Below the pieces are notes generated by a model, which searched no databases, was not told the origin of the DNA, and was given only the letters and a program-made list of their open reading frames with translations. Positions 1 through 2,535 of a DNA stretch of 2,617 bases are shown one piece after another. Within the stretch, counting starts at the first letter, position 1. The number at the start of each line of letters is the position of its first letter. The stretch is from Dictyostelium discoideum (taxonomy: Eukaryota): assembly GCA_000004695.1 (NCBI GenBank), contig CH709162.1, positions 1 to 2,617 on the forward strand, in the 5' to 3' direction. Made by a program: the position numbers and the translations under genes.

Positions 1-335
1 TTTTTATTTTTATTTTTTAAATCTTTAAATTGTTGACCACTTTTATAATTTGTATAAATTCCAGTTTCAAAATCTGTATCAAAATCTATTCTTTCAAAAA
101 ATTGCTTTTTATTTAATAAAGTTTCTAATACTTTTTTAATTTCAAAATAAAAAATTGAGTGATCATAATTTTTATTTATAAATGTTTCTCCTTTTATTTG
201 AAAATCTTCCATAAATAATTTATCCATATATTGAGGAGAGAATCTTATTTGATTTAAATTGGTTTTATTTTTGTCAATAAAACTTTTAAATTTTTCAAGT
301 AGCTTTAAACTTATTGAGTTTTCAATTCCCAACAT
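1..335 (-). CDS. 5' portion (at least 112 codons from first ATG at 333-335; open frame extends to about 417) of a protein-coding gene running off the left edge of the window. Function unknown, Lys/Asn/Phe-rich (MLGIENSISLKLLEKFKSFIDKNKTNLNQIRFSPQYMDKLFMEDFQIKGETFINKNYDHSIFYFEIKKVLETLLNKKQFFERIDFDTDFETGIYTNYKSGQQFKDLKNKNK...)
   Basis: Manual reverse-complement translation of 1-420 gives 139 consecutive sense codons with no TAA/TAG/TGA in DNA of about 20% GC, where stops should occur every 10-15 codons by chance. The frame is closed upstream by a TAA at 418-420. It is absent from the supplied ORF track only because it leaves the window. The ATG at 335 has a weak Kozak context, so the true start or an upstream exon is uncertain. 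Confidence 0.55.
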   Translation of the reverse strand, partial: MLGIENSISLKLLEKFKSFIDKNKTNLNQIRFSPQYMDKLFMEDFQIKGETFINKNYDHSIFYFEIKKVLETLLNKKQFFERIDFDTDFETGIYTNYKSGQQFKDLKNKNK

Positions 336-562
336 TAAAAATTCAATTTCAGTTTCATTTAATTTTTTTTTTAAAGCAATTAATAAAAGCTTAAAAAAGG
401 ATTGATAAGTAATTTTAAATTACATTAAAAATAACTTTTTTAAATTTATTATAAAGAGATTAAAACATTATTTAAAAACTGCTTTATAATAAATTTAAAA
501 GGACATTTTTAATGAAATTTTAAATGACCTTAAAAATATCTTTAAAATTACCTTTTTAAAAA

Positions 563-595
563 GCAAATTTAAAGCCAATTTAAAGCAAATTTAAA
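563..595. repeat. Three tandem copies of an 11-bp unit: GCAAATTTAAA / GCCAATTTAAA / GCAAATTTAAA
   Basis: Read directly at 563-573, 574-584 and 585-595. The period of about 11 bp equals one helical turn, so the A/T tracts are in phase (a possible intrinsic DNA bend or factor-site array). Confidence 0.8.
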
Positions 596-672
596 CTGTA
601 TTTGCTTGAAATAGGCTTTAAAGGTGCATTTTTCTTTGCTGTGTATATATTATGAATAACATTTATTTATTT

Positions 673-683
673 GAATTTCCGAA
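673..683 (+). promoter_or_regulatory. Weak or imperfect HSE-like site GAAtTTCcGAA (1-nt instead of 2-nt spacers)
   Basis: GAA 673-675, TTC 677-679, GAA 681-683. The spacing is non-canonical, so the site is only suggestive. Confidence 0.25.
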
Positions 684-702
684 ATATCTAAGATAATTTT
701 TT

Positions 703-727
703 AGAATGTTCTAGAACATTCGAAGAA
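703..727 (+). promoter_or_regulatory. Canonical heat-shock element (HSF binding site). Four contiguous perfect alternating 5-bp units aGAAt-gTTCt-aGAAc-aTTCg form the perfect 18-bp palindrome GAATGTTCTAGAACATTC (704-721). They are followed by a head-to-head TTCGAA and an extra GAA.
   Basis: Sequence read: GAA 704-706, TTC 709-711, GAA 714-716, TTC 719-721, GAA 722-724, GAA 725-727. The 2-bp spacers match the nGAAnnTTCn consensus exactly. Three or more contiguous units are sufficient for trimeric HSF binding (established knowledge). It lies about 110 bp upstream of the ATG at 834. Confidence 0.6.
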
Positions 728-736
728 TAAAAAATT

Positions 737-762
737 TTCGAAAGAAAAGTAAAAATTTCGAA
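737..762 (+). promoter_or_regulatory. Two additional TTCGAA dyads (737-742 and 757-762), spaced 18 and 20 bp from the TTCGAA inside the main HSE
   Basis: The three TTCGAA hexamers at 719-724, 737-742 and 757-762 repeat roughly every two helical turns. These may be accessory HSF half-sites or a different factor's sites. Confidence 0.3.
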
Positions 763-768
763 CCGGCA

Positions 769-785
769 CAATGATGCGATCATTG
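769..785. other. Inverted repeat CAATGAT-gcg-ATCATTG (7-bp arms, 3-nt spacer) inside a short island of about 50% GC (763-795) embedded in promoter DNA of about 15% GC
   Basis: Arms at 769-775 and 779-785 are exact reverse complements. The surrounding CCGGCACAATGATGCGATCATTGAGCAAGGTCG is conspicuously GC-rich for this window. Confidence 0.5.
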
Positions 786-812
786 AGCAAGGTCGAAAAA
801 CATAAAAATTAA
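771..812 (+). other. Possible 13-codon upstream ORF (MMRSLSKVEKHKN*), in frame with the main ATG at 834 and ending 21 nt before it
   Basis: ATGATG at 771-776, TAA at 810-812. It is relevant only if transcription starts upstream of 771, and the TSS cannot be determined from sequence. Confidence 0.2.
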
Positions 813-815
813 ATA
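802..815 (+). promoter_or_regulatory. TATA-like A/T element ATAAAAATTAAATA about 20-30 bp upstream of the ATG. An alternative TATATATTA is at 645-653.
   Basis: This is a motif match only, in a region where A/T-rich matches are expected by chance. Confidence 0.2.
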
Positions 816-833
816 GAAACCTTTGATTTAAGA

Positions 834-1286
834 ATGAAATCAATGGAAGATCAAATCAACAACCTTTCCTTAGCCTTTACAAGATTCATGAAAGAACCAA
901 TGTTCTATTCTAATAAAAATTCACGTAGCCAACCTTCTCATGATAACTCTGACACTGAGAATGAACAAAGTGAAGATGAATCAAGTAACAATTTCGATGT
1001 TTCAACCGATTATCAATTATCCGATACCTTACTTGGTCAGTACAAACATATGGTAAACAATCAAGGTTTACTCGTAGAAGAAGAATGTATCCTCAAGAAA
1101 GATGAGATATCCGAATTGAATAAAGTATTCAACTTTCCATCTAACTTCCAAGTGAATGTCGCTCCATTTATTACACCTGAAGGTAATTCTGTATCATCCA
1201 ACTTCAAAAACAATGATACTGACTTGTTGATTGTCGAAAAGAGAATCAACGATAGCTTGAAACCTTTGATTCTCTTTTTTTTATAA
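834..1286 (+). CDS. Intact 150-aa ORF encoding an acidic (D+E 24 vs K+R 13), Ser/Asn-rich, probably disordered protein with a short hydrophobic C-terminus (LKPLILFFL). I recognise no domain. It is putatively heat-shock regulated.
   Basis: ATG with A at -3 (agaATGa). There are 150 sense codons with no stop in AT-rich DNA. GC is about 34%, above the flanks. Codons are C-ending 'optimal-type' (ttc, aac, atc, tcc, acc, gtc, ggt). The HSE lies 110 bp upstream and an AATAAA cluster 27-60 nt downstream of the stop. Confidence 0.65.
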   Translation: MKSMEDQINNLSLAFTRFMKEPMFYSNKNSRSQPSHDNSDTENEQSEDESSNNFDVSTDYQLSDTLLGQYKHMVNNQGLLVEEECILKKDEISELNKVFNFPSNFQVNVAPFITPEGNSVSSNFKNNDTDLLIVEKRINDSLKPLILFFL

Positions 1287-1347: not shown

Positions 1348-1444
1348 AGAATGATTTACATACTAAATTTTAATTCTACGATAAGTCTTAACAAATATTG
1401 TTTAATATTATATAAAATTTTTGTTTTAAATAATGCGTTTTATT

Positions 1445-1465
1445 AAAAAAAAAAAAAAAAAAAAA
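1445..1465. repeat. A21 homopolymer
   Basis: Read directly. Confidence 0.95.
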
Positions 1466-1489
1466 CATATGAAAAGTGAAAATTTTTTC

Positions 1490-1503
1490 AAAAAAAAAAA
1501 AAA
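1490..1503. repeat. A14 homopolymer
   Basis: Read directly. Confidence 0.95.
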
Positions 1504-1838: not shown

Positions 1839-2120
1839 CTAAGACTCTAACTTATATCTCTGCTTGACCGTCGCCTGATGATGATAGGGTAAGCATGTGT
1901 GATGTTTGACATTATTATTAATTAAGAACTTGGACCATGAGTTACTTGAGAATAACGGATCATTATCTGAAATAATTACGGATGGAAATCTAAATGTAAA
2001 CATAACTTGATCTTGTGACAATGGAAAAATATCTTTTGAATTAGTAGATGATGGAATTGGTATGAGTACGACATATTTGGATAATCGGTCAACTACAATT
2101 AATATTCTATTAAAGTTCAA
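1839..2120 (-). mobile_element. Integrase DDE catalytic core (rve-type) of the relic. D1 is in VVDRLSKY and D2 in ISDNDP. The catalytic E (QTDGQTER) is apparently replaced in QATVKQRY.
   Basis: It is a 93-codon open stretch, and the motif order and spacing match retroviral/gypsy integrases. Confidence 0.75.
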
Positions 2121-2220
2121 TTTGATTAATTGTACATTTGTTCAAACTTGAAAGGAAATCCATGCTAATTTCACTAAAACATCTTGATGGTGAAAGAGGT
2201 GATAGTAATCCAATTTGATG

Positions 2221-2436
2221 TTTCCTTGAATCGGAGGCACAAATACATATTTTATAATTACTACAATAATCTTTGATATCAGCAATCACTCCTTTTCAAA
2301 AGAAGTTTCTTTTTATTTAATCAATGGTTTTGAAACTACTTCAATGACCTGCTAGTGCTGAATCATGATGTATGGAAATTACTTGATTAATTACAAAAGT
2401 CTCTAATGGTATTATTACAATAATATTTTCATTATC
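2221..2436 (-). mobile_element. Integrase N-terminal HHCC zinc-finger region of the relic (H-H from IHHDSALAGH, C-C from DYCSNYKICIC), interrupted by TGA 2341-2343, TAA 2317-2319 and TGA 2296-2298
   Basis: See the pseudogene entry. Stop positions come from manual reverse-complement translation. Confidence 0.7.
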
Positions 2437-2535
2437 TTTTAAGCATTGATCTAATGGATAAGTGTTTAATTGTTGATATTGGTTAGTAACTTTTTGAAGT
2501 TTGATAAATTTCCGCAAGAAAAAATTCAAAAAATG

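What the first reader, a model, noticed from the sequence alone, without database searches (positions are those of the whole stretch)
703..762. Perfect palindromic four-unit heat-shock element plus phased TTCGAA dyads upstream of a small orphan ORF
GAATGTTCTAGAACATTC (704-721) is a perfect 18-bp palindrome made of four contiguous nGAAn/nTTCn units with exact 2-bp spacing. A chance occurrence of four perfect units is very unlikely, even though GAA/TTC triplets are favoured in AT-rich DNA. It sits 110 bp upstream of the 150-codon acidic ORF. Two more TTCGAA dyads follow at about two-turn spacing (737-742, 757-762), and a looser GAAtTTCcGAA site lies 20 bp upstream (673-683). This predicts that the downstream gene is a strongly heat- or stress-inducible HSF target. 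HSF targets of this size are usually small HSPs or hydrophilins, but this protein resembles neither, so it may be an uncharacterised stress protein. Because the region is a divergent promoter, the minus-strand gene starting at <=335 could be co-regulated.
Basis: partly seen in the sequence, partly recalled or inferred. Interest (0 to 1): 0.5.

Follow-up and report, generated by a model that had tools for sequence, protein, structure and literature searches.

The report
DIRS-1 retrotransposon heat-shock element, dead copy
The perfect heat-shock element is real, but it is the long-known heat-shock promoter element in the terminal repeat of the Dictyostelium retrotransposon DIRS-1, here in a broken copy, and the "orphan ORF" is a truncated piece of that element's gag-like gene.

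Summary
GAATGTTCTAGAACATTC lies at 704-721 and is a perfect four-unit HSE; 0 of 200 shuffles produced one.

The window is Dictyostelium discoideum DNA made of transposon relics. Bases 644-810 are positions 21-188 of the ~314-bp DIRS-1 inverted terminal repeat (ITR). Bases 816-1274 are DIRS-1 ORF1 (putative GAG), codons ~22-174 of 335.

The exact 18-mer is present in every D. discoideum ITR copy aligned. It showed 0/198 mismatches in 11 copies, against 5.7% elsewhere in the ITR. The ORF has more than 100 Dictyostelium-only homologue clusters. That DIRS-1 ITRs carry a heat-shock promoter was published in 1983-84.

This copy is dead:
- It lacks ITR bases 1-20.
- A ~327-bp deletion removed the TATA box, the 5'UTR and the ORF1 start.
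- It is cut at 1274.

The minus-strand "gene" is another truncated multi-copy transposon ORF whose terminus abuts the ITR at 643|644. There is therefore no host divergent promoter. The site at 673-683 has the wrong spacing and depends on one private base.

The only small new point is that the HSE varies between Dictyostelium species.

Verdict: already known, low interest.

The parts
704..721 (.). Perfect four-unit heat-shock element (GAAtgTTCtaGAAcaTTC), at positions 82-99 of the DIRS-1 ITR. With the upstream tTTTt it makes five units with one mismatch.
   Evidence: Identical in all 11 D. discoideum ITR copies aligned. The 13-mer GAATGTTCTAGAA is also the core HSE of the C. elegans hsp-16.2 promoters (PMC9148306).
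644..810 (+). DIRS-1 left inverted terminal repeat, positions 21-188 of ~314. The outer 20 bp and the inner ~126 bp, which include the TATA box, are missing.
   Evidence: 93-94% identity to L002 5569-5736 and to the inverted right ITRs at L002 9436-9269 and 10285-10116.
737..762 (.). Two TTCGAA hexamers (737-742, 757-762) inside the ITR. The block AAAAnTAAnAATTTCGA (about 745-761) is invariant in ITRs of four Dictyostelium species. The first hexamer is specific to D. discoideum.
   Evidence: Alignment A1. Their function is unknown, and they are not in HSE register.
673..683 (.). GAAtTTCcGAA. It is not an HSE because the spacers are 1 bp. It exists only through the private base G681.
811..819 (.). 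Junction of a ~327-bp internal deletion relative to an intact DIRS-1 (L002 5737-6063). The deletion removed the distal ITR with TATAAATA, the 5'UTR, and the ORF1 ATG plus the ~21 codons after it.
   Evidence: The junction is unique to this locus among the fetched loci.
816..1274 (+). DIRS-1 ORF1 (putative GAG) fragment, codons ~22-174 of 335. The called 150-codon ORF (834-1286) starts at internal Met28 and ends in 4 unrelated codons.
   Evidence: 93% nucleotide identity to L002 6064-6522. 91% amino-acid identity to P0001. 108 homologue clusters, all Dictyostelium, some fused to RT or Tyr-recombinase domains. Clusters with 335-aa proteins. The 3' junction 1274|1275 is unique to this locus.
1..643 (-). 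Relic of a second, unnamed multi-copy Dictyostelium transposon-like element. Bases 359->3 encode aa 199-317 of an 814-831-aa protein. Bases 345-643 are its repeated terminal region, ending exactly at 643.
   Evidence: No Pfam family.
1839..2529 (-). Degraded Ty3/gypsy-type integrase (zinc-binding H2C2 plus rve core), with in-frame stops and a frameshift.
   Evidence: (24% identity to a D. firmibasis Ty3/gypsy pol).

Best explanation
The palindrome is the heat-shock element (HSE) carried in the inverted terminal repeat of the tyrosine-recombinase retrotransposon DIRS-1 (also called Tdd-1) of Dictyostelium discoideum. It is present in this window by descent, because bases 644-1274 are a fragment of the left end of a DIRS-1 copy.

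In intact elements the four contiguous nGAAn units lie about 174 bp upstream of the ITR's TATAAATA box. They are the only HSE-like site in the ITR. They are inferred to bind heat-shock factor trimers cooperatively and to make ITR-driven, inward-directed transcription responsive to heat and stress. The literature reports a heat-shock promoter in the ITRs and a 900-nt heat- or stress-induced antisense transcript, E1, assigned to the right ITR (PMC4482531).

The copy in this window is defective:
- Its ITR is cut at position 21 by the end of another transposon.
- A ~327-bp deletion removed the TATA box, the 5'UTR and the ORF1 start.
- ORF1 is cut at codon ~174.

The HSE here is therefore most likely a stranded relic in a nest of transposon fragments. 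Such nests are typical of the centromeric DIRS-1 clusters. The 150-codon ORF is a gag remnant, not a stress gene.

Shown here: identity of the sequence, copy structure, recurrence and conservation of the 18-mer. From the literature: heat inducibility and promoter activity of the family. Inferred: HSF as the binding factor, and inactivity of this particular copy.
For:: 108 homologue clusters of the ORF, all Dictyostelium, some fused to PF00589 or PF00078.

the homologue P0001 sits immediately upstream of an RT plus Tyr-recombinase ORF.

window 644-810 matches a 314-bp repeat found once direct and twice inverted around that element. Window 816-1274 matches its ORF1.

position of the HSE, the TATA box and the ORF1 ATG in the intact copy, and the deletion in the window.

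the 18-mer is exact at 13 places in five D. discoideum-group loci. It has 0/198 mismatches in 11 copies against 94/1639 outside it, including copies 11-27% diverged elsewhere.

there is no other HSE in the ITR.

the three junctions are unique to this locus.

Literature:
- PMC2685390 states that an active heat-shock promoter lies in the DIRS-1 ITRs, citing Zuker et al. 1984 PNAS 81:2660 and Cappello et al. 1984 MCB 4:591.
- PMC3950715 reports left and right LTR promoter activity, the heat-induced 900-nt E1 transcript, ~40 intact copies plus 200-300 fragments, and centromeric clustering.
- PMC4482531 reports that both ITRs are strong promoters and attributes the stress-induced E1 transcript to the right ITR.
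- PMC9148306 shows the same 13-mer in the C. elegans hsp-16.2 HSEs.
Against: I could not read the 1984 primary papers. The equation 'published heat-shock promoter = this 18-mer' therefore rests on it being the only HSE in the ITR, and on my recollection that the papers pointed to matches to the Pelham consensus CTnGAAnnTTCnAG. Bases 701-714 and 711-724 each match that consensus at 9 of 10 specified positions.

No expression or binding data exist for this particular copy. AT-rich sequence between the HSE and the ATG could still support cryptic initiation.

The perfect HSE is not conserved in DIRS-1 ITRs of D. citrinum or D. dimigraforme. It is therefore not indispensable for the element family.
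Confidence: 0.92

Rival explanations
1. The HSE cluster is the dedicated, possibly divergent, promoter of a single-copy host gene that encodes a new small acidic stress protein.
For: A perfect HSE lies 112 nt upstream of an intact 150-codon ORF with no Pfam family.
Against: The ORF is 91% identical to DIRS-1 ORF1 and is truncated at both ends. The HSE is part of a repeat found in every DIRS-1 copy aligned. The upstream ORF belongs to another truncated repeat. The ITR promoter is unidirectional (PMC3950715).
Confidence: 0.02
2. The 18-bp palindrome serves the retrotransposon mainly in another role, and its HSE-likeness is secondary. For example, it could be a binding or recombination site for the element's tyrosine recombinase, or for another dimeric DNA-binding protein.
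For: Tyrosine recombinases act on inverted-repeat sites (established knowledge). The palindrome is strictly conserved within D. discoideum copies.
Against: Recombinase core sites normally have a 6-8-bp spacer, and this palindrome has none. The DIRS-1 model places joining at the ITR termini and the ICR, not 80 bp inside the ITR (PMC7192593). DIRS-1 ITRs of D. citrinum and D. dimigraforme lack the palindrome although their elements encode the recombinase. The sequence equals a proven HSE core from C. elegans.
Confidence: 0.04
3. The motif is a chance product of AT-rich, GAA/TTC-rich sequence.
For: GAA and TTC triplets are frequent in this composition. TTCGAA alone is only about 3-fold enriched.
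Against: 0 of 200 shuffles gave a four-unit HSE. The 18-mer is invariant across diverged copies.
Confidence: 0.01

Closest known systems
Heat-shock promoter in the inverted terminal repeats of Dictyostelium DIRS-1/Tdd-1 (Zuker et al. 1983 Cell 34:997; Rosen et al. 1983 Cell 35:243; Zuker et al. 1984 PNAS 81:2660; Cappello et al. 1984 MCB 4:591)
   Same: Same organism group, same element, and the same ITR sequence (93-94% identity). The HSE lies at the same ITR position as in intact copies.
   Different: This copy is a fragment. It lacks ITR bases 1-20, the inner ITR with the TATA box, the ORF1 start, everything beyond ORF1 codon ~174, the second ITR and the ICR.
Canonical eukaryotic HSE (inverted nGAAn pentamers; Pelham box CTnGAAnnTTCnAG), e.g. 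the C. elegans hsp-16.2 promoters
   Same: Four perfect alternating units in 5-bp register. The 13-mer GAATGTTCTAGAA is identical to the hsp-16.2 HSE core (PMC9148306).
   Different: It sits in a transposon repeat, about 174 bp from the TATA box in intact copies, and not in a chaperone gene promoter.
Other stress-responsive retrotransposon LTRs with HSEs, e.g. Arabidopsis ONSEN/ATCOPIA78 (from my own knowledge, not checked here)
   Same: A TE-borne HSE couples element transcription to the host heat-shock response.
   Different: The element class is unrelated (Ty1/copia with direct LTRs and a DDE integrase, against DIRS with inverted repeats and a tyrosine recombinase).

Membership tests
DIRS-1 retrotransposon (fragment of) | Terminal repeat homologous to the DIRS-1 ITR | tested here: met
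   Window 644-810 is 93-94% identical to positions 21-188 of a 314-bp repeat. That repeat flanks, in inverted orientation, an ORF1/RT/Tyr-recombinase element in L002.
DIRS-1 retrotransposon (fragment of) | ORF1 (putative GAG) homology | tested here: met
   91% amino-acid identity to P0001. Same 90% cluster as the 335-aa ORF1 proteins.
DIRS-1 retrotransposon (complete element) | RT/RNase H/methyltransferase and tyrosine recombinase ORFs, a second inverted ITR and an internal complementary region | tested here: not met
   Homology ends at 1274. Downstream lie AT-rich DNA and an unrelated integrase relic. The window holds a fragment, not an element.
Heat-shock element (HSF binding site) | At least three contiguous alternating nGAAn/nTTCn units in 5-bp register | tested here: met
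   Four perfect units at 704-721.
Heat-shock element (HSF binding site) | Lies upstream of a core promoter (TATA box and transcription start) | tested here: not met
   Met in intact copies, where TATAAATA is 174 bp downstream. In this copy that segment is deleted.
Heat-shock element (HSF binding site) | HSF occupancy and heat-inducible transcription | not testable with these tools
   The literature reports heat inducibility for the family. Nothing is known for this copy.
   No Pfam family at E<=1. The protein is a DIRS-1 ORF1 fragment.

The most novel reading that the evidence does not exclude
The HSE is kept under selection in active D. discoideum DIRS-1 lineages. It is invariant across copies that are 7-27% diverged elsewhere in the ITR. 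A different HSE-like site (GAAttTTCtgGAG) sits at the homologous ITR position in D. firmibasis, while D. citrinum and D. dimigraforme lack one. If so, stress coupling of DIRS-1 would be a lineage-specific trait that has been repeatedly gained or lost. Stranded HSE-bearing fragments like this one could then seed heat-induced transcription or siRNA production in centromeric repeat clusters.
Probability: 0.12. Interest if true: 0.4.

Novelty: already known. Interest (0 to 1): 0.12.

Why it matters
It matters little beyond correct annotation. The finding rediscovers from raw sequence a textbook case of a transposon-borne heat-shock promoter. It also shows that the flanking 'genes' are transposon debris.

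There are two practical lessons. A perfect HSE next to an orphan ORF in an AT-rich protist genome should first be checked against the repeat content. And the AX4 gene model DDB_G0294206 is a DIRS-1 gag fragment.

The cross-species variation of the ITR's HSE is a minor lead on how stress-responsiveness of retrotransposons evolves. The HSE is perfect in D. discoideum, carries a 1-bp insertion in most D. cf. discoideum copies, is different but HSE-like in D. firmibasis, and is absent in D. citrinum and D. dimigraforme.

Tried and rejected
- tRNA and Rfam scans of the window found nothing. No tRNA-targeted element or RNA gene explains the GC-richer patch at 763-800. That patch is part of the ITR.
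- Pfam gave no family for the 150-aa ORF or for the upstream ORF.
- I tried to read the primary 1984 papers (PMC345129, PMC369062), Glöckner 2001 (PMC311061) and Kuhlmann 2005 (PMC1283529). None is held. As a result the upstream transposon could not be named, and the published HSE coordinates could not be checked directly.
- The look-up of the AX4 protein P0036 found no contig.
- A literature search for Dictyostelium HSF/HSE work found nothing specific.
- I considered an alternative genetic code (TGA=Trp) for the integrase relic and rejected it. TAA stops and a frameshift are also present, and the neighbouring ORFs read normally. It is a decayed copy.
- I considered the TTCGAA hexamers and the 673-683 site as extra HSEs and rejected them on spacing and register and on conservation.
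- I ran no further search on naming the integrase relic, because it does not bear on the finding.

Full report
**Observation**

The window contains GAATGTTCTAGAACATTC at 704-721. It is a perfect 18-bp palindrome with GAA/TTC/GAA/TTC starting at 704, 709, 714 and 719, which makes four contiguous nGAAn units in exact 5-bp register.

- TTCGAA is at 737-742 and 757-762 as stated. A third TTCGAA overlaps the palindrome at 719-724.
- GAAtTTCcGAA is at 673-683.
- The 150-codon ORF is at 834-1286, 112 nt downstream of the palindrome. Its pI is 4.5.
- The four-unit pattern never arose in 200 dinucleotide-preserving shuffles.
- TTCGAA alone is only mildly enriched: 4 observed against 1.4 expected, and 10 of 200 shuffles reached 4.

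The core observation is therefore real and not due to chance.

**What the sequence is**

The ORF has 108 homologue clusters (E<=0.01). Every one comes from Dictyostelium (D. discoideum, D. cf. discoideum, D. firmibasis, D. citrinum, D. dimigraforme), with up to 91% identity. Several are fused to tyrosine-recombinase (PF00589) or reverse-transcriptase (PF00078) domains.

The exact protein is KAM9950958.1 of D. discoideum. Its 90% cluster also holds the AX4 model DDB_G0294206, which lies on a 2617-bp contig, the same length as this window. The cluster also holds 335-aa full-length versions.

The best homologue, P0001, sits immediately upstream of an RT plus Tyr-recombinase ORF in locus L002. Around that element a ~314-bp sequence occurs once in direct orientation (L002 5549-5862) and twice inverted (9455-9142 and 10305-9989). 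[quoted passage not shown]

- Window 644-810 aligns to positions 21-188 of that ITR at 93-94% identity.
- Window 816-1274 aligns to ORF1 (L002 6064-6522) at 93% identity.
- The palindrome lies at ITR positions 82-99.

**Structure of this copy**

In the intact L002 copy, the HSE (5630-5647) is followed 174 bp later by TATAAATA (5822-5829), then the inner end of the ITR, a 5'UTR, and the ORF1 ATG at 6001.

The window copy has three defects:
- It lacks ITR positions 1-20.
- It has lost L002 5737-6063, about 327 bp. This segment holds the second half of the ITR with the TATA box, the 5'UTR, and the ORF1 ATG with the ~21 codons after it. The called ORF therefore starts at internal Met28.
- Homology stops at 1274, at codon ~174 of 335. 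The frame then runs into 4 unrelated codons and a stop.

All three junctions (643|644, 811-819 and 1274|1275) are unique to this locus among the fetched loci.

**Flanks**

- Window 359->3 encodes residues 199-317 of an 814-831-aa protein. That protein is again multi-copy and restricted to the D. discoideum group (34 clusters). It often occurs on the same contigs as DIRS-1 copies and has no Pfam family.
- The N-terminal 198 codons are missing.
- Window 345-643 is the repeated terminal region of that element. At least three other partial copies lie in L001 and one in L006, and two copies end exactly at the base equivalent to 643.

The 'intergenic region' is therefore the end of one transposon relic butted against a DIRS-1 ITR cut at position 21.

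Downstream, 1839-2529 on the minus strand is a decayed Ty3/gypsy-type integrase. It matches Integrase_H2C2 at 1e-13 and rve at 9e-10, and carries in-frame stops and a frameshift.

The 13-kb contig holding this locus in another strain carries only transposon genes: rve, DDE_Tnp_4 and RVT_1. This matches published descriptions of DIRS-1 clusters. [quoted passage not shown]

**Recurrence and conservation of the HSE**

The exact 18-mer occurs at 13 places in the five D. discoideum-group loci fetched. Among 11 D. discoideum ITR copies it shows 0 mismatches in 198 cells. The rest of the aligned ITR shows 94 in 1639 (Fisher p = 2e-5). This includes copies that differ from the consensus at 11-27% of other positions. 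The copies are not independent, so the p-value is only indicative.

A scan for 3-unit HSEs allowing one mismatch finds no other HSE in the ITR. The exception is a one-copy variant upstream of the palindrome, GAATTTTCCCAAA.

Across species:
- D. cf. discoideum: four of six copies carry a 1-bp insertion in the centre (GAATGTTCTTAGAACATTC).
- D. citrinum: GAATGCCGAAA(T/C)GACATTC, with the inner units lost.
- D. dimigraforme: lacks the segment.
- D. firmibasis: a different HSE-like site, GAAttTTCtgGAG, at the homologous place in three of four copies.

The block around the second TTCGAA (AAAAnTAAnAATTTCGA) is invariant in all four species compared with the window. The first TTCGAA is specific to D. 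discoideum.

It also depends on G681, which is C at the same locus in the other strain and in every other ITR copy.

**How it works**

The literature states that DIRS-1 ITRs harbour an active heat-shock promoter (PMC2685390, citing Zuker et al. 1984 PNAS 81:2660 and Cappello et al. 1984 MCB 4:591).
- The left LTR drives the 4.5-kb sense mRNA.
- Heat shock or other stress induces a 900-nt antisense transcript, E1 (PMC3950715), which PMC4482531 assigns to the right ITR.
- Both ITRs are strong promoters (PMC4482531).
- The right LTR works only in forward orientation (PMC3950715).

The 18-mer is the only HSE in the ITR. Bases 701-714 and 711-724 each match the Pelham consensus CTnGAAnnTTCnAG at 9 of 10 specified positions, read directly from the sequence. 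Its 13-mer core is identical to the HSE of the C. elegans hsp-16.2 promoters (PMC9148306).

I therefore infer that this is the published heat-shock element. I infer that it acts by cooperative HSF trimer binding upstream of the ITR's TATA box. I could not read the primary papers, so this equation is an inference.

For the copy in the window, the core promoter is deleted and both neighbouring ORFs are truncated. The most likely state is an inert relic. Cryptic heat-induced initiation cannot be excluded.

**Comparison, novelty and verdict**

This is a fragment of a known element carrying a known regulatory site, so the verdict is 'already known'. The only mildly new material is the between-species variation of the ITR's HSE, which would need reporter assays to interpret. 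Interest is low.

Noticed in passing
window 1-643 (minus strand); L001 212-2143, 10041-10343, 10946-11045: An unnamed multi-copy protein specific to the D. discoideum group, 814-831 aa when intact, with an N-terminal C2H2-like CxxC...HxxxxH motif and no Pfam family. It has a repeated ~300-bp terminal region that contains three 11-bp-spaced AAAGC(A/C)AATTTAAA repeats (560-595) and an 85% inverted repeat (558-590 / 600-632). It is probably a DNA transposon. The window copy lacks codons 1-198.
   Followed up: partly
window 1839-2529 (minus strand): A Ty3/gypsy-type integrase relic. One in-frame TGA falls where integrases have Trp (FF*KG for F(Y/F)WxG), further stops (a TGA after AGH and a TAA) interrupt the zinc-binding region, and there is a frameshift near 2110-2120. 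The pattern is consistent with transition decay and not with an alternative genetic code. It is only 24% identical to a D. firmibasis Ty3/gypsy pol. In the longer contig it is separated from its RT part by a DDE_Tnp_4 gene.
   Followed up: partly
window 237, 239, 241, 457, 503, 515, 681, 2536-2610: There are 16 differences between the window and the same locus in assembly GCA_054883475.1 (L001), i.e. 99.4% identity. They include a cluster of three A/T swaps at 237-241 that change two codons of the upstream ORF (FS in the window, YT in L001), and G681/C. They are either strain differences or old sequencing errors. The window is probably the 2617-bp AX4 contig that carries DDB_G0294206.
   Followed up: partly
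L002 5678-5785 (intact ITR); window 760-805: The intact D. discoideum ITR holds two tandem ~50-bp GC-richer modules. Each has an internal palindrome (CACAATGAcgcgaTCATTGTG, then CACAATGcacgaatTTGTG) and ends in GGTCGAAAA. The window keeps only the first module. One L006 copy has collapsed the two into one. The function is unknown. It could be a promoter element or a target of the reported LTR methylation.
   Followed up: no
L003, L004, L005, L008 ITR copies (alignment A1): The HSE segment is the most variable part of the DIRS-1 ITR between Dictyostelium species, although it is invariant within D. discoideum. The outer ~80 bp and the inner ~90 bp (TATA region) are well conserved.
   Followed up: partly
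window 1441-1502, 1636-1653, 2528-2550: Long A and T homopolymer tracts (up to about 21 nt) lie in the unassigned AT-rich stretch 1275-1740 and next to the integrase relic. No homology to the fetched loci was found beyond low-complexity matches.
   Followed up: no
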